Shown here: positions 23,359 to 52,234 of the stretch, one piece after another
Position numbering within the stretch: the stretch's first letter is position 1
Layout: each line of letters opens with the position of its first letter
IMG/VR virus record: IMGVR_UViG_3300029566_000004
Strand: one strand, 5' to 3'
DNA length: 64,000 bases
From: a virus
The notes under the pieces: model-generated
Seen by the model: only the letters and a program-made list of their open reading frames with translations
What the model was told of the DNA's origin: nothing
Databases searched by the model: none
Program-made: the position numbers and the translations under genes

Positions 23359-23910
23359 TTATCCAGAAGTGATACAATTGCGCATTTGTTGTTCCATATC
23401 GGCAATTATTTCATCTAATGATATCGGCTTGCAATCATGTGCATCTACCGATACATTATATACATATGGCAAATCATTATAGAATTTGCGTTTGTCATGT
23501 GTATGGCCCGAAAGATTGAGCGTCATCTGCTTAAGTGATTCACGCTCAAGGTTGCCTGTCATACAAGGGTAATGGGTCATGAAAAAGTGATGTTTATTAT
23601 ACTTGAGCTTAATCGCAAGCGCAACTTCAACCACATTCGGGCAAGTGCGGTAAAGCGCTTCGCGTGTATCAGTATCATGATTACCTAAAACAATATGTAC
23701 TCGGCAAGGAATTTGCAGAAGATATTCCAATCCCTTCTGGTTATCTCCAAGCATTACATCGCCGAGAATATAAAGATCATCATCGGGTTGAAGTTGAAGC
23801 AGATTATGAAGAATAACCCCATTCATTTCTTCTACGTTATTAAAACCACGTGGTTCATATAAAAATGCGCGGTCATGATTAAAATGGAGGTCAGAAGTTA
23901 CATAAATCAT
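23359..23910 (-). CDS. calcineurin-like metallophosphoesterase
   Basis: SDLHFNH..GDV..GNHD..GHTH motif series. Confidence 0.75.
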   Translation of the reverse strand: MIYVTSDLHFNHDRAFLYEPRGFNNVEEMNGVILHNLLQLQPDDDLYILGDVMLGDNQKGLEYLLQIPCRVHIVLGNHDTDTREALYRTCPNVVEVALAIKLKYNKHHFFMTHYPCMTGNLERESLKQMTLNLSGHTHDKRKFYNDLPYVYNVSVDAHDCKPISLDEIIADMEQQMRNCITSG

Positions 23911-23932
23911 TTTTTACCTCTCTTTTCTGCGT

Positions 23933-24487
23933 TTAATACACTTTATTTTCATAAGGCGATTCTAAATATAAAACCTTTACTGATATTTTCGTATCATTTT
24001 CTGGACGTTCAAATGAATTCCACATACGAGTAACAATATCATCTGGTACAATAGCATGGTAAGCGCGCTGATGATTACGCTTTATCGTTTCTTTTAACGA
24101 GGCTCTGATAACAAGCACCGTTACTTCAACATTGGACAAATCCAAACGCTTTAACACTTTTAAACGAGATTTTTCAGTTAAATGAGTTGCATCAGCATAT
24201 ATACGAGTAGGCCCTTTGGCATCATTCAGATAATTCTGAATAGTTTCAATAAATTCATTGAAAACTTCGGTTTCATGAGTAAAATAATGGTCGTCTTTAG
24301 ACTGCATATAGCTAAAGCGAATTTCATCGCGAGATACTACAGCGCAATCAGAACCGATAGCATTTGCTCGCAACCAGGTGCTTTTCCCAGAGCCAGGAGC
24401 GCCGCACATCAAGAAAAGCTGTTTCTTTTCAGGCTCTTTATTAATCTCCACAGGTTTTTTTGATTTCTTAAAAAGATTAAATTCCAT
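23933..24487 (-). CDS. polynucleotide 5'-kinase-like P-loop kinase (T4 Pnkp kinase-domain pattern)
   Basis: CGAPGSGKSTW..SRDEIR..ADATHL..KSR..IKRNHQR..VP..V parallels T4 Pnkp GCPGSGKSTW..NRDDYR..SDTNL..RR..KRNSKR..VP (recalled from memory). Confidence 0.65.
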   Translation of the reverse strand: MEFNLFKKSKKPVEINKEPEKKQLFLMCGAPGSGKSTWLRANAIGSDCAVVSRDEIRFSYMQSKDDHYFTHETEVFNEFIETIQNYLNDAKGPTRIYADATHLTEKSRLKVLKRLDLSNVEVTVLVIRASLKETIKRNHQRAYHAIVPDDIVTRMWNSFERPENDTKISVKVLYLESPYENKVY

Positions 24488-25214
24488 AGATATTTCCTTT
24501 CACACGGTCATAAAACGGTATATGCTCACAAGTGTCTAAATTTAATAGTATCGCTCCACCAGACCAAAAAGAACCATTATCGATATCGATTTTATGGTCA
24601 TCACCATATATAAGCAGAGTAGGCTCATGCGGCACATCCATATGTAACTCATCGACTACAAAAGGAATTGGAGTATGACCATGGACGCATACTTCATCGG
24701 GTCGCTCACCGTTATCTTCTGGCACAATCACCTTATCACGAAAATGATTTCTGTCCCAAATTAAATCTTCACGGATAGGCAAATCTTTACGATATGGAGT
24801 ATATCCCGCATGCGATAAATGCCAAATTGTGTTATTTTTTTCACTAAAATAATCCATATGTATAGGCAGTGTGCGCAAACGATCCAACCATACTTTGCGC
24901 TCTTCTGGGGTCTCTTTTAACCAGCCCCTATATGTATCATAGCCGTCATTCACTATTACTAATTCAAGAGATTCATTGAAAGGATAGCCAGCAAGACACT
25001 CTTCCATGGCATTTATAAGCATATCTTCATGATTGCCCATCAGATAGATAAACTGCGGATTAGTGTATACAGCTTTGATTAATTCCCAGTTCTTATAACC
25101 ACGATCGCCGCAATCGCCTAAACAAATTACTTTATCTTCTGGTTTAATATAATCGAGAATTTGCTCATAAATATCATACATACCGTGTAGATCTGAACAC
25201 ACATACATCGACAT
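24477..25214 (-). CDS. Ser/Thr-phosphatase-family metallophosphatase (lambda PP / ApaH-like)
   Basis: SDLHGMYD..GDCGDRG..GNHE..HAGY..GHT motifs. Confidence 0.75.
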   Translation of the reverse strand: MSMYVCSDLHGMYDIYEQILDYIKPEDKVICLGDCGDRGYKNWELIKAVYTNPQFIYLMGNHEDMLINAMEECLAGYPFNESLELVIVNDGYDTYRGWLKETPEERKVWLDRLRTLPIHMDYFSEKNNTIWHLSHAGYTPYRKDLPIREDLIWDRNHFRDKVIVPEDNGERPDEVCVHGHTPIPFVVDELHMDVPHEPTLLIYGDDHKIDIDNGSFWSGGAILLNLDTCEHIPFYDRVKGNIYGI

Positions 25215-25245
25215 GTTAAATTTCTCCTTTTATTTTTCTATATAT

Positions 25246-25274
25246 ATTATAACAAATTTTTTTATAAAAATCAA
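25246..25274 (-). promoter_or_regulatory. promoter cassette (-35 TTGATT, -10 TATAAT)
   Basis: Coordinates checked base by base. The -35 abuts the terminator hairpin. Confidence 0.7.
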
Positions 25275-25275
25275 A

Positions 25276-25293
25276 GGCGGCTGTTATGCCGCC
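25276..25293 (-). terminator. intrinsic terminator fused to the next promoter's -35
   Basis: GGCGGC-N6-GCCGCC. Confidence 0.7.
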
Positions 25294-25299
25294 TTTTTC

Positions 25300-25473
25300 T
25301 CAATCCTTTTTCTTATTATCTAGCAGAAGTGAAATGTTTAAGCCGCAGCATTTATATTCTGAATTATATAGCATACATTTCTCTTCAAAACATTCTTCGA
25401 CCTTTTCGTTACCAGTAAAGGGATCTGTACGAGAACGCAATGGACAAAGTTTTATTTCTACAAGTCTACCCAT
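25300..25473 (-). CDS. hypothetical Cys-rich small protein
   Basis: MGRLVEIKLCPLRSR..CFEEKC..CCG.. GAGG RBS. Confidence 0.4.
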   Translation of the reverse strand: MGRLVEIKLCPLRSRTDPFTGNEKVEECFEEKCMLYNSEYKCCGLNISLLLDNKKKD

Positions 25474-25480
25474 ATATACC

Positions 25481-26911
25481 TCACATTTCTGATGCGATAT
25501 CTGCATCGGCAACATCAATTGCCTCTTCAGTTATAATACCAGATAAACACTTAAATGTGAAATTCTTGTGTTTATAGGCAGTAAATGAAGGACGATTTAC
25601 AATACGGACCACTACACCTTCGCGCACATGGGTTTTACCTATTGGGTCTGGACCGTCGCAGTAAGTTTCAGCAGCTTCCATTACCCATTCTCCGGGAGTT
25701 TTAGTAACATAATCAATAATTCCTTCACTATTTAGATATAGAATATTGCGGTCATTACTATCTGGAATGCGGAGCTGCTCAAACACAGGAACAGTTTTAC
25801 AACCCATTTGCTCACAACGATAACGCATATAGTCAGGAGTATATTCTACGACATTGCCATCCTCATTAGTCATAGTCATACGATATACATAGAAATCAGA
25901 CTGAGACACAGGCTCTGGGATGCTAAATACACTGATTTCATCACGATAGAATTTTTTGCGCTGACCAGTTGGCTCACAGCCATATGAGAATACAGTAGTA
26001 GGACCATACTGACGCTCAAATTCTTTATCGTTTAACTTTTTATTACTTACTGATCCCATAATAGGCGCACCAGAAGTAGTAAAACCAACAACTTCGTAGA
26101 ATACTTCTTCACCCTTATGAAGTTTGCCTTCGAAGAACTTTGCGTGTGGCTCACGGAATTCATTAGAGCCATAGAAACCGCCATCGAAATTGTCAAGTAC
26201 AGTACGACGAGTACCAGTTACATAACCCCAATCATAAATTGGCTTGCCGGGACGACGGAATAGTTTGTCCCAAAAAGTGCGCTTCATACCCTTAAACACT
26301 GGCAGATAACCGGTGCGCTGAGAGGTGCCATGCAATTTGAGTGTAATCTCAATCTCGTCACCAGGCTTAAAAGCGTTAAGATTATACGCAAGTTGTTCAG
26401 TATCGGCGTGCTCGTTAAATAAAGGCGCAATAGGTATATTCTTAGGCTTATTCTTACGAGTGCGGTTTGGGCTATTAAATTCATTATGAGCCTTTACCTT
26501 AGGAATATATTTATCACAAATCCCGTGGCCATTAAGCTCATGGATAACAGCGCCTTCAGTTAAGAGAGACATATCTACACCAGTATATGCTACTGAGTCA
26601 AGAGCCATAAAGATACCATCAGAAGGTTCTCCGCGCAAACGAATAGTCTTGATGTTGCGCTTATCAGGCTCAAGATATCCACCAACATTTTTACCAGTTT
26701 CATCCTTGCGACGTACAAGATTATTCTGTGCGCAAAACTCTTCGCTTAACTGAAGCCCAGATGGGAAATAAATACCCATATCACCAAGTTTTACATCCAG
26801 ACCAACGCAAGTTTCACAGTCAAAGAACTTAGCGATTTGTAACTTATTGGCGTTCATATGTGGACGCAACTCTTTTACTTTCACTACATAACCACAGTGA
26901 GTAATACTCAT
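25481..26911 (-). CDS. ATP-dependent RNA ligase (DraRnl/NgrRnl-like: N-terminal OB-like domain + nucleotidyltransferase)
   Basis: Candidate motif I ..ITLKLHGTS.. (KxHG, as I recall for DraRnl KIHG). N-terminus ..GYVVKVKELRPHMNANKLQIAKF... AGGAG RBS. ATGA overlap with the upstream exonuclease gene. Confidence 0.6.
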   Translation of the reverse strand: MSITHCGYVVKVKELRPHMNANKLQIAKFFDCETCVGLDVKLGDMGIYFPSGLQLSEEFCAQNNLVRRKDETGKNVGGYLEPDKRNIKTIRLRGEPSDGIFMALDSVAYTGVDMSLLTEGAVIHELNGHGICDKYIPKVKAHNEFNSPNRTRKNKPKNIPIAPLFNEHADTEQLAYNLNAFKPGDEIEITLKLHGTSQRTGYLPVFKGMKRTFWDKLFRRPGKPIYDWGYVTGTRRTVLDNFDGGFYGSNEFREPHAKFFEGKLHKGEEVFYEVVGFTTSGAPIMGSVSNKKLNDKEFERQYGPTTVFSYGCEPTGQRKKFYRDEISVFSIPEPVSQSDFYVYRMTMTNEDGNVVEYTPDYMRYRCEQMGCKTVPVFEQLRIPDSNDRNILYLNSEGIIDYVTKTPGEWVMEAAETYCDGPDPIGKTHVREGVVVRIVNRPSFTAYKHKNFTFKCLSGIITEEAIDVADADIASEM

Positions 26912-27783
26912 TTTATATCTCCTTTCTGAACAACAGTCCAATTTAAATTTTGATAAGTCAATTTATTCATATCTGACCAAATAATTTTTTTTGCAAGTGC
27001 TTTGTTGTCACGCTTATACTTAGGCATTGTTTTACGAATATGATTACACAGCCAATCACAAGCCTCTGTAAAAGTATTAAAACTATGTTTAAGTGCTTTA
27101 GTATCAGCATCATAAGCATATATGCATTCAGTATTATTGATAATTGCTTTGCGTGCTTTAGGATCAAGGCCCAAACGTGTAACTGCGGGCTTTGTTCCTT
27201 TCGCTACGAGTGCAGATTTATTTATTTCTGTTTTAGGCTCATAGTCCGGGAAAGGATGACCTTTTACCGTACCTCCTTGGTTCACCTCATCAAAAACAAT
27301 TTTGAGAAATTCGGCATCTTCAAGAGCATTATGCGTCTGAACGAATTCCTCTTTTTTATAATAATTTACAACTTTAATAAGAGCAATTTCTTTAATTAAT
27401 CCAAAATGATTTTTAACAGTAGGAGCATAATTCACAAGGTTAGCCGCAATCAAAGAAAGTGACATTTGTGCGGTTATGCTAGTAGCTTTTTTAATTGCTT
27501 TACGCACAAATGTTAAATCTGTATTGCCATAACAGAAAAAGCGGCAAGGTGTGCCATCATTATGTTCTAATACCCAATAGAAAAAATGAGTAAATACATC
27601 ATCTAAACTGGGCGCCGCTTTATTCATTCCATCAGTAATACCAGTTAAATTAGTAATAAAAGAAGTAATTTTCTTATCGGTATAAACCATACTGGAAAAT
27701 TTTGCATCTGTCTCACTAACGCAACCAATTGAAATAATTTCATTGGAAAATTGTGTTGCTTCAAAGTCAATAAAATAATTCAT
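26908..27783 (-). CDS. DEDDh 3'-5' exonuclease-domain protein
   Basis: Exo I ..FIDFEAT.. and Exo III ..HNALEDAEFL... Confidence 0.7.
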   Translation of the reverse strand: MNYFIDFEATQFSNEIISIGCVSETDAKFSSMVYTDKKITSFITNLTGITDGMNKAAPSLDDVFTHFFYWVLEHNDGTPCRFFCYGNTDLTFVRKAIKKATSITAQMSLSLIAANLVNYAPTVKNHFGLIKEIALIKVVNYYKKEEFVQTHNALEDAEFLKIVFDEVNQGGTVKGHPFPDYEPKTEINKSALVAKGTKPAVTRLGLDPKARKAIINNTECIYAYDADTKALKHSFNTFTEACDWLCNHIRKTMPKYKRDNKALAKKIIWSDMNKLTYQNLNWTVVQKGDIK

Positions 27784-38702: not shown

Positions 38703-40232
38703 TTATTTAATTCGTGTATACATTTCTCCGTCGAGAACATCAAGCATAAGCTCAAACGCAGTTTTACCTTTCATAATCTGCTCAAATAGTACAGGACTGA
38801 AGCCGCTAACGAAGGTGATACCATCTTTTACAGTCATAGGAATATTATTCTGACGAGCTTGCACATTCCAAAAGATGAGATTAGGCATCTTTAGACCCCA
38901 TGCACGCCATTTATCAGCAATATGTTCCATGAGAGCACCACTATTATTATCACTCCATAGACGCGCAGCATCAAATTCCATATCTGAGATGATGATTATA
39001 TTCTGAGGAATATCTTCCTTCTTCACATCAGGACGAAGTGCTATTTTAAGAAGAAGATCAAAAGTAGCTTCAATATCAGTGTTTTCACAAAGATTAGTAC
39101 GGTAAATACGTGCAACCTTATCACAGAAGTCAACACCTTCAGTAGCTATCCACTGAGGACGACTAGAGAAGCTAATGTAATGTCCTGCAAAAGGTCCTTT
39201 GTTGTGTTCGGCGCAATAAAGACCAAGAGAAATAGCAACATTAATAGGTGCAGATGCCTCACTGCCCCTCATAGAACCAGAAGTATCAACAACTGCAATG
39301 CCATTAAAGGTTGCGCCTTTAAAGTAATCAGTCAAATTCTCCCAATATTTATTAACTGCCAGACGATTTATATCATCAAGAGCAGGCTCAAAGTCACTAC
39401 CAAAGTCACTACACCAACCTAAACTTTTCCGCATAACATTTGTGGCGGCTGCAACGCATTCATAAGGATGAAGCGCCTTAGCATTAACCTTAGTTTTAGT
39501 ATCCTTCATGAAGTCTTCATAAGTGGTTTTGCCGATTTTCTGACGTTCAATATCGTGACGAGCAAAAGCATTGCGATAAATCATACCGGCGCGAGAAGGA
39601 ATTTTGTCAAATTCAATTTCATTCCAACGTTTTGCAGACATCAGTCTTTCAAGAACACGAATACGTTCACGAAGGCTAGAAAGTGCTTTACGATACTCAC
39701 GAGAAGTAAGATTAAACTTTTGGCGAGTAAGGGTTGCAAGCTGACGGCTCTCATGGCTAGAAGTATTTTCAGATTTAAGCCATTTAGCAAGCAAAGAGGG
39801 GGTCTTGCTCTTAAGATCAAGAACAAGCTGTTGCTTCATCAGGTAGAACATCTTATCCTCAACAGGAGTTCCTACAAGAGCATAAAGATCGTCCCAGCGA
39901 CCATAAAAAGGAATGTTCTCAAGATTACGAATTACATCTTCAGGATGATTTTTTGCAAGCCAGTTAAGGACAACGCGGAAGTAACGACGCTCACCCTGGC
40001 CACCGCGTACGGAGCGCAAATAAAAAAGGCACTTAAGCGCACGAAGCGCATCTTCTTCATAAGCCTTCTTAAAGAGCAGAATGCAATCTGCGTTGGAGCG
40101 GGTACGGTACGCGCCACCGAGTGCAAACATATCAAGTAGACCGCTCATAGTAGACTTGTGAGTCAGAGCACCATTCTCGGTAACAGCATAGTTGTTCGCG
40201 TTATTCATTACGTTCATAAAAGTATTAGCCAT
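38703..40232 (-). CDS. helical N-domain + C-terminal vWA (MIDAS DTSGSM) protein, DUF2828-like; architecture resembles Ro60/TROVE
   Basis: ..TENGALTHKSTMSGLLDMF..YLRSVRGGQGER.. then ..AVVDTSGSM... ..FVSGFSP... Confidence 0.5.
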   Translation of the reverse strand: MANTFMNVMNNANNYAVTENGALTHKSTMSGLLDMFALGGAYRTRSNADCILLFKKAYEEDALRALKCLFYLRSVRGGQGERRYFRVVLNWLAKNHPEDVIRNLENIPFYGRWDDLYALVGTPVEDKMFYLMKQQLVLDLKSKTPSLLAKWLKSENTSSHESRQLATLTRQKFNLTSREYRKALSSLRERIRVLERLMSAKRWNEIEFDKIPSRAGMIYRNAFARHDIERQKIGKTTYEDFMKDTKTKVNAKALHPYECVAAATNVMRKSLGWCSDFGSDFEPALDDINRLAVNKYWENLTDYFKGATFNGIAVVDTSGSMRGSEASAPINVAISLGLYCAEHNKGPFAGHYISFSSRPQWIATEGVDFCDKVARIYRTNLCENTDIEATFDLLLKIALRPDVKKEDIPQNIIIISDMEFDAARLWSDNNSGALMEHIADKWRAWGLKMPNLIFWNVQARQNNIPMTVKDGITFVSGFSPVLFEQIMKGKTAFELMLDVLDGEMYTRIK

Positions 40233-43878: not shown

Positions 43879-43952
43879 TGGTGCGGGGCTGCGGATTTGA
43901 ACCGCTTTTTCAGCTTTTTAAAGCTGAGGGTATACCTTTAGCCTAACCCCGC
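43879..43952 (-). tRNA. atypical tRNA-like gene with an 8-nt anticodon loop UUUAAAAA
   Basis: Acceptor GCGGGGT/GCCCCGC, A73, CCA. Perfect 5-bp stem TCAGC/GCTGA encloses 8 nt. The D stem is weak and the variable loop short. Confidence 0.5.
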
Positions 43953-44073
43953 AATATAAAACAAAACGTATTTTTCTTCACTCACTCAAAATAATTCATT
44001 TATTGCTACATACGTTTTTATATGGTGCGGATGGAGGGATTCGAACCCTCAAGGATTTCTCCCGACGGATTTT

Positions 44074-44808
44074 CTTACTACTCTATGTTACCATAGCCGC
44101 ATTATTGCGTTGTAGTCTGGATCATGTCTTCTCCATATCTTTCGACTTAGGAGGCTGGTGTATGATCTCTACACATTTACAATCTAAATGATTGATTTAG
44201 CTCGGCGTTATCCCAGTAGGACTTTCGCCGAATTAGCCAGCATTCACTCAGAAGATTTCTCACTCTGGTGCTCTATTTGCAGAAATAGTATTTTTTCTTC
44301 TACGCCAATTTGGAGTATAAGAATGACAGTTTGGACATAATAATTGAAGATTTTCTAAACGATTGTCTGTCCTATCTCCATTAATATGATGGATTTCAAG
44401 AGTAATTGGTTGTCCTAACCACTCTGTTAATCCACAGCATTCACATTTACGTCCTCTCAATTTAATTAAAGGATTTAATGTTGTGCTGCCATTCTTTTTA
44501 ATTGAATTTACTGTAAATAATGTGTAATCATAATTCTCATGATTCCATGCTTGTCCTAAAAAATGTGAGGTATCAAGTTGAAGTTCTTGACACATTTTAT
44601 TTAATGAAGTTAATGCTCCGCCACTGTCTCTTGCATATCCAAGGGCTATTGCAACTTCACGCATAGACTACGCATTTTTTACAATTTCTTCAATTTGTTC
44701 TTTTGAAAAAGATTTCCATTTTGGTTCTCTTGCCATAATATAGACCTCCTTTTTTCTTGTCTATTTATTATGGCAGAGGCGATAGATATTTTAATCTACT
44801 CTGCCCAA
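44074..44808 (-). mobile_element. group I intron in tRNA-Leu(UAA) carrying an HNH endonuclease ORF
   Basis: The 5' exon ends in U and the intron ends ..GTAAG. A candidate internal guide GAGU pairs with exon ACUU. About 257 nt are non-coding, including ..TCCAGACTA.. / ..TAGAGTAG... Confidence 0.7.
44260..44735 (-). CDS. HNH homing endonuclease (intron-encoded), one in-frame TAG
   Basis: MAREPKWKSFSKEQIEEIVKNA-TAG-SMREVAIALGY.. and C-terminal ..CECCG..HHINGDRTDNRLENLQLLCPNCH... Confidence 0.75.
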
Positions 44809-45037: not shown

Positions 45038-45126
45038 TGGCTGGGGTGGAGGGATTCGAACCCCCATCTTTCGCCTCAGAAGCCCGGCATTTAGAGTGCC
45101 GTGTGTTGCCATTACACCACACCCCA
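45038..45126 (-). tRNA. amber suppressor tRNA, anticodon CUA (reads UAG)
   Basis: TGGGGTG-TG-GTGT-AATGGCA-ACAC-A-CGGCA-CUCUAAA-TGCCG-[19 nt]-GGGGG-TTCGAAT-CCCTC-CACCCCA-G-CCA. All stems are Watson-Crick apart from one G-U pair in the T stem. Confidence 0.85.
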
Positions 45127-48581: not shown

Positions 48582-48747
48582 ATATATAACTAAGTTTTGC
48601 TTTCGTTGTCTTTTTATTTTTGTGTGCTGCTAAATGACAATGCCACATATGGATTATATCCCCGGTGGTAGTTGAAACTTAGAAAATCCATCCTTTCCGC
48701 ACACTTTGGCGCTCCCGGTAGGACTTGAACCTACGACGCGGTGGTTG

Positions 48748-49215
48748 CTTACACATCAGCTTACCAATTCTTTACTACTTCCTCCAATTCATAATTTTTC
48801 GCCCAAGTAATACCTCTTACTTGACCATTTTTTGTAGGAAGAATACGAAGTCTTTTATCTGCTCCGCACTCCTCAACTGGAACTAAATAACATTTTCCAT
48901 TAAAAGTAGTTACGAAGTAATCAATTTCCTCGTTTGAGTATGTATGATGCACAATCTTACCATCTTTTCTATTACAACTTCTACAAGAAAATTTGAATGA
49001 TGCACCATCATCTTCGGTATTTGATGTTTTAGCTTGAACTCGAATAAACTTTCCATTAACATCTACTACAAAGTCATATCTCTCACAATCTCCATATGGA
49101 GTTAAAACATTATAACCAAGTTTTAGAAATGCTAACATTGTTTCAAGTTCTGTAATATTTCCTTTTTGTTTACTATTCATTTATCTTTTCATAAAGAATA
49201 GATAAGGTCAGGTAA
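48748..49215 (-). mobile_element. 468-nt insertion in the tRNA anticodon loop, almost entirely a PD-(D/E)XK endonuclease ORF
   Basis: Only about 35 nt lie upstream and 13 nt downstream of the ORF within the insertion. With the terminal-G rule the loop becomes CUGU|CAA (Asp). An Asn loop CUGUU|AA would need an intron ending in C. Confidence 0.55.
48761..49180 (-). CDS. PD-(D/E)XK endonuclease of the I-Ssp6803I-like (tRNA-intron) type
   Basis: MNSKQKGNITELETMLAFLKLGYNVLTPYGDCERYDFVVDVNGKFIRVQAKTS.. fits the ..KG...E......L..G..VL.P.GD..-YD.V.D..G...RVQ(V/A)K pattern. Confidence 0.6.
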   Translation of the reverse strand: MNSKQKGNITELETMLAFLKLGYNVLTPYGDCERYDFVVDVNGKFIRVQAKTSNTEDDGASFKFSCRSCNRKDGKIVHHTYSNEEIDYFVTTFNGKCYLVPVEECGADKRLRILPTKNGQVRGITWAKNYELEEVVKNW

Positions 49216-49256
49216 ACAGCCACCTGCTCTGCCAGCTGAGCTACAGGAGCATATAT

Positions 49257-50867: not shown

Positions 50868-51497
50868 TTATTTAGAAAATTTCCAAATATATCCATAAGC
50901 AGTTTTTCGTTTTCCTTTACAAACATCTGAAATATGACTAATTCCGCCTCTAGATGTTGATTCTGGACAAACTGTTTTATAGGCTTCAGATAAAGAAGGA
51001 AAAGTTCTTAAATATTTACCATTTTTATCATATTGATTAATGATACATCCAAATTTTTCTTGATTAATTTTTTCTTGAGATTTTATCTCAATATTATACT
51101 TTTTCAAAATTTGACTTAAATAGTTTCTATCACAATGATATATTTGACTTATTTCTTCTAAGTTAGGATTTTCTTTATAAGCAAAAATTAAAACATCATA
51201 ATCTAAATAGCGTTTTCCATCGCCCCCTAAAGTGGCATTATATCCATTTTTAAAAGAACGATAATGTTCAATCCAGTACTTTTCTCTTTCTTCTGGATTA
51301 TTTGTTTCTTCTATCTGCTCGATATGAAAATGTTCAATTCCATATTTGCGCATCGCCGCATATAGCGGTCTTTTTTCATTTCTATCTCGAAAAGCATCTT
51401 GACAATGTTCTTTAAATCTTTTTTCAATAGAAAATTCTGTTTTGCCAATATAAATTTTCTAATTTATATCATTAACAATTTTATAAATGTATGCCAT
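50868..51497 (-). CDS. free-standing GIY-YIG homing endonuclease, one in-frame TAG (51459-51461)
   Basis: MAYIYKIVNDIN-TAG-KIYIGKTEFSIEKRFKEH...YWI..Y....GYN...GG. AGGAG RBS. Confidence 0.75.
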
Positions 51498-52091: not shown

Positions 52092-52117
52092 TAACATACT
52101 CCTTTGATTAAATTTAC

Positions 52118-52234
52118 AAGACACTTTTTTGTTATTATTACTCTGCCAACTGAGCTACCAGTCCAAATGAACTGGATAGGATTCAAACCTGCGGCAACGA
52201 GAAATAATTTAATCTTATTTGCTGTTAGTGTCTT
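52118..52234 (-). ncRNA. circularly permuted tRNA-like element (Y-RNA/YrlA-like candidate)
   Basis: The 8-bp basal stem AAGACACT/AGTGTCTT encloses four parts in order: a hairpin, the T-like arm GCAGG-TTTGAAT-CCTAT, the closed acceptor-like hairpin CCAGTTC-ATTT-GGACTGG, and the D arm TA-GCTC-AGTTGGCA-GAGT. It lies about 12 nt downstream of a promoter cassette's predicted start. Confidence 0.5.

What the first reader, a model, noticed from the sequence alone, without database searches (positions are those of the whole stretch)
48707..49250. Second tRNA split in the anticodon loop by an insertion that is almost pure PD-(D/E)XK ORF
A tRNA with a B. subtilis Asn-like T arm and G73 is interrupted by 468 nt. 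Of these, 420 nt encode an I-Ssp6803I-type PD-(D/E)XK endonuclease, the family known from the Synechocystis tRNA-fMet intron.

Only about 48 nt of the insertion are non-coding. A ribozyme core would therefore have to overlap the ORF, or the element is not self-splicing.

The junction choice changes the tRNA's identity: CUGU|CAA gives Asp(GUC) and CUGUU|AA gives Asn(GUU). No intact Asn tRNA is seen in the array, whereas Asp is present twice.
Basis: partly seen in the sequence, partly recalled or inferred. Interest (0 to 1): 0.65.

Follow-up and report, generated by a model that had tools for sequence, protein, structure and literature searches.

The report
Ribozyme-free endonuclease insertion splitting phage tRNA-Asn
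A phage tRNA-Asn gene is split in its anticodon loop by a mobile endonuclease gene that has no self-splicing RNA and instead carries a conserved stem pairing its own end with the anticodon, so either bacteria-infecting phages have protein-spliced tRNA introns, or a selfish gene kills tRNAs and uses them as a scaffold.

Summary
On the minus strand, a complete tRNA (exons 49250-49215 and 48746-48707, CCA encoded) is interrupted by 468 nt. Of these, 420 nt are a PDDEXK_5 (I-Ssp6803I-family) endonuclease ORF.

The junction is 36|37, giving Asn(GUU), not Asp. Enterococcus phage EFP01 carries the same element, and removing it recreates exactly the uninterrupted tRNA-Asn gene of about 29 sister phages.

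It is not a group I intron:
- no covariance-model hit here or in 20 related loci;
- no synonymous-site constraint in the ORF;
- the last intron base is C, A or U rather than G;
- no P1 or internal guide sequence.

More than 100 related loci share one design in at least 9 anticodon types, always at 36|37. The 5' UTR pairs with the intron's 3' end, and the last three intron bases pair with the anticodon. Covariation is strong. Free-standing relatives beside intact tRNA genes lack this stem.

Best reading (0.45): a mobile, ribozyme-free, protein-dependent tRNA intron, resealed by phage RNA-repair ligases. Main rival (0.38): it is never spliced, the tRNA is sacrificed, and the stem and tRNA body serve the endonuclease mRNA. 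No transcript data were available, so this stays open. I found no description of it in the searchable literature.

The parts
49215..49250 (-). tRNA-Asn 5' exon, positions 1-36, ending with C32 U33 G34 U35 U36 (anticodon at 49217-49215).
   Evidence: Read directly. Found by ARAGORN with the intron option. Stem counts.
48747..49214 (-). 468-nt intervening sequence inserted between tRNA positions 36 and 37.
   Evidence: The junction is fixed by homology with EFP01 and EFDG1 and by the family-wide rule.
48707..48746 (-). tRNA-Asn 3' exon, positions 37-76 (A37 A38, CCACC, variable loop, T arm, acceptor strand, G73, encoded CCA).
48761..49180 (-). Homing-endonuclease ORF, 139 aa plus stop, PD-(D/E)XK family PDDEXK_5 (I-Ssp6803I type). 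E11, D36, Q49 and K51 are invariant among 15 diverse copies.
   Evidence: (phrog_5018).
49212..49217 (-). Helix A, 5' strand: G34 U35 U36 plus the first three intron bases (U A C). The 5' junction lies inside this helix, after its third pair.
   Evidence: Covariation. Present in the MFE and centroid folds of the full 544-nt RNA.
48747..48752 (-). Helix A, 3' strand: GUAAGC, the last six intron bases. Its last three bases (AGC) pair with the anticodon, with a conserved U35·G wobble. The 3' junction lies directly after it.
49207..49211 (-). Internal loop, 5' side: CUGAC (box-D-like CUGA).
   Evidence: The loop pair C1'-G6 covaries (CG 7, UG 6, AU 1).
48753..48759 (-). Internal loop, 3' side: CUGAUGU (box-C-like UGAUG). 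It could form tandem G·A / A·G, U·U and G-C pairs with CUGA.
   Evidence: The k-turn reading is by eye only. Other subfamilies have a small 1x2 loop (A / CA) here instead.
49192..49206 (-). Helix B, 5' strand (CUUAUCUAUUCUUUA), in the intron's 5' UTR.
   Evidence: mini-construct folds of 25 loci. (9 of 15 pairs with changes on both sides).
48760..48774 (-). Helix B, 3' strand (UAAAGAAUUGGUAAG). It covers the last ORF codons, the stop codon and one further base.
23359..26941 (-). RNA heal-and-seal gene cluster: metallophosphoesterase 23359-23910, P-loop kinase (AAA_33) 23933-24487, metallophosphoesterase 24477-25214, RNA ligase 25481-26941. These are candidate sealing enzymes; the link to the intron is inferred, not shown.
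   Evidence: (phrog_968, E=4.4e-63).

Best explanation
WHAT IT IS
A mobile intervening sequence without a ribozyme. A tRNA-targeting PD-(D/E)XK homing-endonuclease gene has settled inside the anticodon loop of tRNA-Asn(GUU), exactly between U36 and A37. Its relatives sit as free-standing genes beside phage tRNA genes.

SHOWN
- It moves as DNA. There is a clean presence/absence polymorphism with no target duplication. Near-identical copies sit in very different tRNA-Asn genes, and diverged copies sit in at least 9 anticodon types.
- It has no group I core.
- Its RNA ends form one long irregular hairpin stacked on the anticodon stem. The order is: anticodon stem, C32·A38, U33-A37, helix A, an asymmetric internal loop, helix B, then the ORF in the terminal loop. 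Helix A consists of the anticodon plus 3-7 intron bases paired with the intron's last bases. Helix B is 9-16 bp, formed by the 5' UTR and the end of the ORF.
- This hairpin covaries strongly and occurs only in the in-tRNA copies.

INFERRED
- The hairpin is a splicing substrate for proteins, as in archaeal introns.
- A structure-specific endonuclease cuts the two strands of helix A three base pairs apart. One cut is after U36. The other is before A37, which lies opposite U33. Both cuts flank the conserved U35·G wobble.
- The tRNA body holds the two halves together.
- A phage RNA-repair ligase reseals the anticodon loop. Candidates are the kinase/phosphoesterase/ligase cluster in this window and RtcB in phage EFP01. 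The product would be functional tRNA-Asn.
- The cutting enzyme is unknown. It could be a host RNase or the intron's own endonuclease.
For: - No ribozyme. There is no Intron_gpI or other ribozyme hit inside the element here or in 20 relatives at E<=0.1. A genuine group I intron 4.5 kb away in the same array is detected.
- Synonymous variation is uniform along all 139 codons in 28 distinct ORFs.
- Covariation in the anticodon stem plus helix A, over 32 loci and at least 9 anticodons: 94.9% paired against 58% when shuffled and about 40% when slid. All 11 pairs change on both sides.
- With helix B included: 91% against 78%, 17 pairs with double changes, 0 of 500 shuffles as high.
- The intron's last triplet tracks the anticodon: AGC/GUU, AAA or AGA/UUU, AUC/GAU, AUA/UAU, GCA or GUA/UGC, GGC/GUC, UCA/UGA.
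- Many G·U pairs show that the structure belongs to the sense-strand RNA.
- The AGC triplet, with its U35·G wobble, is kept in all Asn subclades although neighbouring bases vary.
- The 5'/3' duplex has z = -2.8 to -5.8 in in-loop copies. It is about 0 in 12 of 13 free-standing relatives.
- The full 544-nt RNA folds into the cloverleaf, anticodon stem and helix A, with z = -5.4.
- Tested ORFs are full-length; their only in-frame stops are TAG/TGA, most read as recoded, and no ORF-less copy was found.
- In-silico spliced tRNAs are as intact as 145 neighbouring tRNAs, and many encode CCA.
- Sealing enzymes are encoded by both phages examined.
Against: - No transcript evidence of a spliced product was available.
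- No bacterial or phage enzyme is known to make these two cuts. RNase III would leave a 2-nt stagger, not 3 nt. There is no bulge-helix-bulge motif.
- RtcB, the ligase in EFP01, cannot seal the 3'-OH/5'-P ends that a PD-(D/E)XK hydrolase would leave.
- RNA-repair ligases are common in large phages whether or not they carry this element, so their presence is only permissive.
- Exon intactness may simply reflect recent homing into healthy genes. Exons differ far more than the introns do.
- Some copies have defective exons but an intact ORF and stem. L029 has a broken anticodon stem. L029 and L256 have anticodon GCU, where U35->C improves helix A. L016 has a D-arm duplication. L004 has C33. L006/8/9 have two mismatches.
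- Only 1 of about 30 sequenced Schiekvirus phages carries the element.
Confidence: 0.45

Rival explanations
1. No splicing. The endonuclease gene has simply landed in its own cleavage site, which gives it self-immunity, and the dispensable tRNA is sacrificed. The tRNA body and closing hairpin are kept because they serve the endonuclease mRNA. RNase P and 3' processing excise the unit from the tRNA-array transcript. The folded tRNA then acts as a protective scaffold, like the engineered 'tRNA scaffold' used to stabilise recombinant RNAs. Alternatively, the 25-30-bp stem is an RNase III site that releases the mRNA, as with bacterial rRNA intervening sequences that are cut out without religation.
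For: - It needs no unknown enzyme.
- Phage tRNAs are individually dispensable, and relatives of this gene are ordinary free-standing tRNA-array endonuclease genes.
- Exons differ greatly between near-identical introns, so their intactness can reflect recent invasion.
- Decayed exons coexist with an intact ORF and stem (L029, L016, L256).
- U35->C arose twice. It strengthens helix A at the cost of the anticodon.
- The element is at low frequency in Schiekvirus, 1 of about 30 genomes.
- A long near-perfect dsRNA stem is a typical RNase III substrate (established knowledge).
Against: - The strictest pairing is at the three anticodon positions, directly at the junctions. It has been re-established after jumps to new tRNAs. 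A stabilising stem would not need to reach the junction.
- The U35·G wobble is conserved where an A would make a stronger helix.
- Loop bases not needed for a scaffold (U33, A37) are kept in almost all copies.
- The lineage has spread through at least 9 anticodon types and many phage groups, which is easier for a cost-free element.
Confidence: 0.38
2. A small, so far unknown self-cleaving or self-ligating RNA motif is formed by the boundary hairpin (the conserved internal loop plus helix A). It cuts both junctions, possibly with ligation by RtcB-type enzymes.
For: - The loop sequences are conserved: CUGAC / CUGAUGU in the Asn/Lys clade, and ACAAA / CAUUGU in the others.
- Small ribozymes leave 2',3'-cyclic phosphate and 5'-OH ends. 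These are exactly what RtcB in EFP01, or a kinase/phosphoesterase/ligase set as in this window, can seal.
Against: - The two subfamilies share no loop sequence.
- In the CAUUG subfamily the hairpin is almost fully Watson-Crick, with only a 1x2 loop, which leaves no room for a catalytic core.
- There is no Rfam ribozyme hit in the boundaries.
- The junction bases vary: N36 is U, C or A, and the last intron base is C, A or U.
Confidence: 0.05
3. A compact group I intron whose catalytic core overlaps the endonuclease reading frame.
For: - The endonuclease family is known from the group I intron in Synechocystis tRNA-fMet, which is 655 nt with a 150-aa ORF (PMC1995217).
- With the alternative junction CUGU|...G|CAA, the window copy would obey the group I rule of U before the cut and a terminal G.
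Against: - No covariance-model hit at E<=1 here or at E<=0.1 in 20 relatives. The same search finds the true group I intron at 44095-44292.
- No block of suppressed synonymous change in the ORF.
- The insertion site is 36|37 by homology, so the intron ends in C here, and in A or U in other tRNAs.
- No internal guide sequence lies near the 5' end. The 5' junction instead pairs with the intron's 3' end, which is incompatible with P1.
Confidence: 0.02

Closest known systems
Group I intron with I-Ssp6803I in the tRNA-fMet gene of Synechocystis PCC 6803
   Same: - Same endonuclease family (PF11645; PDB 2OST, E=3.7e-9).
- Also sits in a tRNA anticodon loop.
- Also a mobile element whose enzyme targets the anticodon stem-loop DNA.
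   Different: - The known intron is 655 nt with about 200 nt of ribozyme (PMC1995217). This one is 468 nt with 48 nt of non-coding sequence.
- No group I core, no terminal G, no P1.
- Its ends form a covarying stem with the anticodon.
- It lives in phages of Bacillota and of gut bacteria, not in cyanobacteria.
Archaeal protein-spliced (bulge-helix-bulge) introns carrying homing-endonuclease ORFs, for example in rRNA and tRNA genes (my own knowledge, plus PMC4090602 and PMC3984707)
   Same: - The intron is almost entirely ORF.
- The splice sites are defined by a helix formed across the exon-intron boundaries, and the anticodon pairs with the intron.
- There is no ribozyme.
- The expected ligase type (RtcB) is encoded by EFP01.
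   Different: - There are no two 3-nt bulges separated by 4 bp.
- The position is 36/37, not the canonical 37/38.
- The cuts would be 3 bp apart inside a continuous helix.
- The hosts are bacteria, which have no known splicing endonuclease.
Bacterial rRNA intervening sequences removed by RNase III without religation (Salmonella, Leptospira, Coxiella; my own knowledge; mentioned in PMC3984707)
   Same: - A bacterial setting.
- A ribozyme-free insertion replaces a hairpin loop.
- Its ends form a long stem.
- Some carry an ORF.
   Different: - Fragmented rRNA still works. A tRNA nicked or gapped in the anticodon loop would not.
- Those sequences are not homing-endonuclease cassettes.
- They show no junction-precise pairing.
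Free-standing homing-endonuclease genes in phage tRNA arrays: T4 SegB (PMC2330249), and this ORF's own relatives in Salmonella phage PM10, Halorubrum virus HSTV-4, Vibrio phage River4 and Pectobacterium phage My1
   Same: - Same protein family, at 27-35% identity.
- Same tRNA-array niche, often directly beside tRNA-Asn.
   Different: - Those genes lie between intact tRNA genes. HSTV-4 duplicates the tRNA 3' end after the ORF.
- They lack the 5'/3' closing stem.

Membership tests
PDDEXK_5 / I-Ssp6803I homing endonucleases | Sequence match to PF11645 over the whole domain. | tested here: met
   E=5.9e-32, 111 bits against a cut-off of 26.1, residues 1-132 on profile positions 1-137 of 138. 2OST matches at E=3.7e-9.
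PDDEXK_5 / I-Ssp6803I homing endonucleases | Conserved PD-(D/E)XK catalytic signature. | tested here: met
   E11, D36, Q49 and K51 are invariant in 15 diverse in-loop ORFs. They align with identical residues of 2OST. Catalysis itself was not tested.
PDDEXK_5 / I-Ssp6803I homing endonucleases | Mobility into a cognate intron-less site (homing). | tested here: met
   There is a presence/absence polymorphism at an otherwise identical tRNA-Asn locus, EFP01 against about 29 Schiekvirus genomes. Near-identical ORFs sit in unrelated tRNA-Asn exons. Enzyme activity was not assayed.
Group I intron | Conserved catalytic core (P3-P9) detectable by covariance model. | tested here: not met
   No RF00028 hit in 48707-49250 at E<=1 or in 20 homologous loci at E<=0.1. 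As a positive control, RF00028 scores 42.8 bits at 44095-44292.
Group I intron | 5' exon ends in U, paired to G of an internal guide near the intron's 5' end. The intron ends in G. | tested here: not met
   The last exon base is U, C or A. The last intron base is C, A or U. The 5' junction pairs with the intron's 3' end instead.
Group I intron | Enough sequence for a ribozyme (at least about 140-200 nt), either non-coding or constrained within the ORF. | tested here: not met
   Only 48 nt are non-coding. Synonymous variability in the ORF is uniform.
Archaeal/eukaryal protein-spliced tRNA intron (bulge-helix-bulge) | Two 3-nt bulges separated by a 4-bp helix that carry the splice sites. | tested here: not met
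   The junctions lie 3 bp apart in a continuous helix. One is at the edge of a 2x2 loop and the other is inside helix A.
Archaeal/eukaryal protein-spliced tRNA intron (bulge-helix-bulge) | Anticodon-intron pairing and a boundary helix, with the ORF tolerated in the loop. | tested here: met
Archaeal/eukaryal protein-spliced tRNA intron (bulge-helix-bulge) | A splicing endonuclease (EndA/Sen) is present in the host or virus. | not tested
   The hosts are bacteria (Enterococcus for EFP01). No EndA-like gene was seen among the 40 ORFs (all >=150 aa) scanned in the window. Whole genomes were not scanned.
RNase III-excised intervening sequence | The ends form an extended double-stranded stem that replaces a hairpin loop. 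| tested here: met
RNase III-excised intervening sequence | Excision by RNase III without religation. | not testable with these tools
   This needs RNA end-mapping. The 2-nt stagger of RNase III does not coincide with the 36|37 junctions (geometric reasoning).
k-turn / box C-D-like motif | Tandem sheared G·A pairs next to a 3-nt bulge and a canonical stem. | tested here: inconclusive
   CUGA / UGAUG could give G·A, A·G, U·U and G-C. The G-C pair covaries. But the bulge is 2+1 nt rather than 3+0, and the motif is absent from the Ile, Ala, Asp and Ser subfamily.

The most novel reading that the evidence does not exclude
The intron's own PD-(D/E)XK homing endonuclease doubles as the splicing endonuclease.

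The pre-tRNA hairpin (positions 27-36 paired with 43-37 plus the intron's last three bases) is a double-stranded RNA copy of the left half and centre of the enzyme's DNA target. The two splice sites coincide with the top- and bottom-strand positions of a cut with a 3-nt 3' overhang around the anticodon.

I recall that I-Ssp6803I leaves this kind of overhang on DNA, but I could not verify it in the available library.

The enzyme is a tetramer with two active and two structural subunits (PMC3384342), as I recall for archaeal EndA. A phage RNA ligase would then seal the loop. This would be a third, protein-only kind of intron in the bacterial world, and a natural substrate for phage RNA-repair enzymes.
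Probability: 0.1. Interest if true: 0.95.

Novelty: new variant of a known kind. Interest (0 to 1): 0.8.

Why it matters
All bacterial and phage tRNA introns described so far are self-splicing group I introns. A 2014 review states that no intron had been found in any phage tRNA gene (PMC3984707).

This is a widespread family, with more than 100 loci from human-gut, rumen and other metagenomes plus one cultured Enterococcus phage. It interrupts at least 9 anticodon types at one fixed position, has no ribozyme, and carries an archaeal-style exon-intron stem.

If these elements are spliced, bacteria or their phages have a protein-dependent tRNA splicing pathway. That would also give phage RtcB and Pnkp/Rnl enzymes a housekeeping role beyond repairing damage from host defences.

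If they are not spliced, this is a new strategy for a selfish gene: destroying a tRNA gene and reusing its fold as an expression scaffold.

There is also a practical consequence. Standard tRNA finders miss these genes, so phage tRNA repertoires are under-counted.

The question can be tested directly with the pair EFP01 (interrupted) and EFDG1 (uninterrupted).

Tried and rejected
- **ORF-less mini-introns.** CTGTTTACYTGACCTTA returned only known ORF-bearing loci plus one chance hit, L163. ARAGORN with short-intron settings on 1.45 Mb of held loci gave only merged neighbouring tRNAs. None was found; this is a weak negative.
- **Intron-less allele of the window's own tRNA** in IMG/VR. There was no exact match.
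- **Hammerhead reading of CUGAUG...GAAA.** Rejected: there is no room for stem II and no three-way junction.
- **Standard k-turn.** Only partly fits, and it is absent in other subfamilies.
- **Bulge-helix-bulge motif.** Not present.
- **RNase III as the precise splicing nuclease.** Rejected, because its 2-nt stagger would leave one base too many or too few.
- **Internal promoter** (TTGACC/TTGACA just after the anticodon). Rejected: the -10-like elements are weak, transcripts would start at or after the AUG, and the variation follows RNA pairing.
- **Hairpin as an ancestral feature of the endonuclease mRNA.** Rejected: free-standing relatives lack it.
- **RNA mimicry of the right half of the DNA target** (UACC against AACC). 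Seen only in the window's clade.
- **Link with one ligase family.** The window's ligase has no homologue in Enterococcus phages, which have RtcB instead.
- **DNA cleavage pattern of I-Ssp6803I.** I could not retrieve the primary papers, so that point rests on memory.
- **Literature.** Searches found no description of this element.
Full report
**Observation.** On the minus strand, bases 49250-49215 read as tRNA positions 1-36 (acceptor GCUCCUG, D arm, anticodon stem GGUGG, loop CUGUU). Bases 48746-48707 read as positions 37-76 (AA, CCACC, GCGUC, T arm GUAGG-UUCAAGU-CCUAC, CGGGAGC, G73, CCA).
- The 468 nt between them hold a 139-codon ORF at 48761-49180. The ORF is flanked by 34 and 14 non-coding bases.
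- Plain ARAGORN and Rfam miss the gene. ARAGORN with introns allowed finds a 76-nt tRNA with a 468-nt intron.
- The ORF is a full-length PDDEXK_5 domain (E=5.9e-32). It is related to I-Ssp6803I (2OST, E=3.7e-9).
- The array has two Asp(GUC) tRNAs and no intact Asn tRNA.

**Which tRNA.** ARAGORN's junction (Asp, 35/36) is arbitrary. Enterococcus phage EFP01 has a 70%-identical copy of the element in a tRNA with different acceptor and D stems.
- About 29 other Schiekvirus genomes have an uninterrupted gene annotated tRNA-Asn at the same locus.
- Removing 463 bp between T36 and A37 from EFP01 gives a sequence 100% identical to the tRNA-Asn(GTT) gene of phage EFDG1. There is no target duplication.
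- The 36|37 rule also gives proper anticodon loops in every other tRNA type carrying the element.
- The window's gene is therefore tRNA-Asn(GUU).

**Not a group I intron.**
- An Rfam scan at E<=1 finds nothing in the element. It does find a real group I intron (42.8 bits, E=2e-8) at 44095-44292 in another tRNA of the same array.
- Twenty homologous loci have no ribozyme hit inside the element at E<=0.1.
- In a codon alignment of 28 distinct ORFs, synonymous variation is even along the whole gene. No conserved RNA core hides in the ORF.
- The intron ends in C here and in A or U elsewhere, not G. The last exon base varies.
- The 5' junction pairs with the intron's 3' end rather than with a guide sequence near the 5' end.

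**A large family with one architecture.** Protein-guided searches recovered the element in three collections:
- 30 of 31 IMG/VR loci;
- 9 contigs binned with Bacillota, Clostridia or Bacteroidales MAGs;
- at least 57 of 76 evaluable metagenome loci. These include 99%-identical copies on 147-155-kb human-gut contigs.

The element is always at 36|37. The interrupted tRNAs are Asn GUU (most), Ile GAU, Ile UAU, Lys UUU, Ala UGC, Asp GUC, Ser UGA (a class II tRNA), probably Thr AGU, and one with loop UUUUAAA.

In every case the 14-39-nt 5' UTR pairs with the last 15-25 nt of the intron. From the tRNA outward, the hairpin consists of:
- the anticodon stem;
- C32·A38 and U33-A37;
- helix A, made of N34-N36 plus 3-7 intron bases paired with the intron's last bases;
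- an asymmetric internal loop;
- helix B, 9-16 bp, which includes the stop codon;
- the ORF in the terminal loop.

*Covariation.*
- For the anticodon stem plus the first six pairs of helix A, 94.9% of cells pair in 32 loci. The figure is 58% in shuffles and about 40% in slid controls. All 11 pairs change on both sides.
- In the window's clade, with helix B included, 91% pair against 78%. Seventeen pairs show double changes, and 0 of 500 shuffles reach this.
- The intron's last triplet follows the anticodon. Exceptions such as L031 and L173 (AGC opposite GAU) look like recent jumps from Asn genes.
- Frequent G·U pairs place the structure on the sense RNA.
- The full 544-nt RNA folds into the cloverleaf, anticodon stem and helix A (z = -5.4).

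**The stem is an adaptation to living inside a tRNA.** Relatives at 27-35% identity are free-standing genes next to intact tRNA genes:
- directly 3' of tRNA-Asn in Salmonella phage PM10;
- directly 3' of tRNA-Asn in Halorubrum virus HSTV-4, where the tRNA 3' end is duplicated after the ORF;
- inside tRNA arrays in Vibrio phage River4 and Pectobacterium phage My1.

Their 5' and 3' ends do not pair (z about 0 in 12 of 13). The in-loop copies give z = -2.8 to -5.8.

**State of the exons and the ORF.**
- ARAGORN calls a tRNA across the junction in 35 of 36 in-silico spliced constructs.
- Stem integrity matches that of 145 neighbouring tRNAs.
- Exons differ greatly between near-identical introns. 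The element therefore moves between different tRNA-Asn genes, and exon intactness alone does not prove function.
- A minority of copies are damaged but keep the ORF and stem:
  - L029 has a broken anticodon stem.
  - L029 and L256 have anticodon GCU.
  - L016 has a D-arm duplication.
  - L004 has C33.
- Tested ORFs are full-length. The catalytic signature is invariant in 15 diverse copies.
- In-frame TAG or TGA codons in some copies fall on invariant Gln49 or Trp126. This fits recoded phage genomes.

**How it might work.** A tRNA with 468 nt between positions 36 and 37 cannot decode, so function requires two cuts and a ligation.
- The junctions lie on opposite strands of helix A, three base pairs apart, flanking the conserved U35·G wobble. 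That geometry gives a 3-nt 3' overhang.
- This fits neither RNase III (2 nt) nor a bulge-helix-bulge motif.
- Both phages examined encode enzymes able to seal tRNA breaks:
  - the window has a phosphoesterase, P-loop kinase, phosphoesterase and RNA ligase cluster at 23359-26941;
  - EFP01 and its relatives have RtcB.
- This is permissive evidence only, because such genes are common in large phages.
- The junction-precise, re-adapted pairing, the conserved wobble, and the restriction of the stem to in-loop copies point one way. I consider protein-dependent splicing the single most likely reading (0.45).

**Main rival (0.38).** The element is never spliced. The tRNA is lost, and the tRNA fold plus stem act as a processing and stability scaffold, or as an RNase III site, for the endonuclease mRNA.
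- This needs no new enzyme.
- It fits the damaged copies and the low frequency in Schiekvirus.

**Minor readings.**
- A hidden small ribozyme (0.05) is unlikely. One subfamily's hairpin is almost fully Watson-Crick.
- The endonuclease itself might cut the RNA, since the hairpin mimics half of its DNA site. This is attractive geometrically but speculative. It also conflicts with RtcB's end requirements in EFP01.

**Comparison and novelty.** The closest known systems are:
- the I-Ssp6803I group I intron in cyanobacterial tRNA-fMet (same enzyme family and niche, but with a ribozyme);
- archaeal protein-spliced introns carrying endonuclease ORFs (same logic, different motif and host);
- RNase III-excised rRNA intervening sequences;
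- free-standing tRNA-array endonuclease genes.

The element fails the defining tests for group I and bulge-helix-bulge introns. Seven full-text searches found no description of it. A 2014 review states that no phage tRNA intron was known (PMC3984707). I rate it a new variant of a known kind. It would become categorically new if splicing is shown.

Noticed in passing
window 44023-44700 (minus strand): Another tRNA in the same array is split by a genuine group I intron (Rfam RF00028, 42.8 bits, 44095-44292). The intron carries an HNH endonuclease ORF (motif around 44340). It is followed by a class II tRNA 3' half ending in CCA at about 44023. The 5' half was not located.
   Followed up: partly
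window 45038-45126 (minus); L022, L029, L282, L302-L304, L253, L242: The array has a tRNA with anticodon CUA (amber-suppressor type, long variable arm). In related phages the endonuclease ORFs carry in-frame TAG codons, including one at invariant Gln49 in L303, or TGA at Trp126 in L253. This suggests stop-codon recoding. L242 has TAG at catalytic Glu11.
   Followed up: partly
window 23359-26941 (minus): A compact RNA heal-and-seal cluster: metallophosphoesterase, P-loop kinase (AAA_33), metallophosphoesterase, and RNA ligase (phrog_968; best hit Bacillus phage PBC2, 46% identity).
   Followed up: partly
window 38703-40232 (minus) and 52112-52219 (minus); L228 41624-43156; L024 2430-3016: A Ro/TROVE-like 'RNA-binding protein' (DUF2828 + DUF7788, phrog_850) lies near the tRNA array, with a sub-threshold YrlA (Y RNA-like) hit at 31.6 bits. 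Schiekvirus phages have the same protein, plus a ROOL RNA next to the EFP01 array.
   Followed up: no
window 43879-43952 (minus): ARAGORN reports a tRNA with a four-base anticodon (taaa). Rfam scores it only 34.5 bits. Its loop is U/A-rich, and it could be a UUA/UAA-reading or frameshift-type tRNA.
   Followed up: no
window 50868-51353 (minus): A further homing-endonuclease-like ORF (NUMOD1 domain; PHROG GIY-YIG homing endonuclease families) lies free-standing inside the tRNA array.
   Followed up: no
L018 1973-2040; L011 717-782 and 1083-1140: There are sub-threshold hits to self-cleaving ribozymes in related tRNA arrays: HDV-like at 38 and 34 bits, and twister-P1 at 50 bits. One lies directly after the split tRNA in L018. 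They may process the array transcript.
   Followed up: no
L166 (Halorubrum virus HSTV-4) 493-1110: A homologous endonuclease gene sits 3 nt after an intact tRNA-Asn. It is followed by a duplicate of the tRNA's T arm and acceptor 3' strand. This is a different way of inserting without destroying the tRNA.
   Followed up: partly
L027, L286, L295: Copies of the element sit in a class I tRNA whose reconstructed anticodon loop is UUUUAAA. The anticodon would be UUA, complementary to the UAA stop codon. Here the hairpin is continuous with the anticodon stem, and the non-coding flanks are only about 14 nt on the 5' side and almost nothing on the 3' side.
   Followed up: no
JAZNWP010000048.1 (L170 and L176): One 176-kb contig carries two diverged copies of the element 22 kb apart, in tRNA-Ile(UAU) and tRNA-Asp(GUC).
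   Followed up: no
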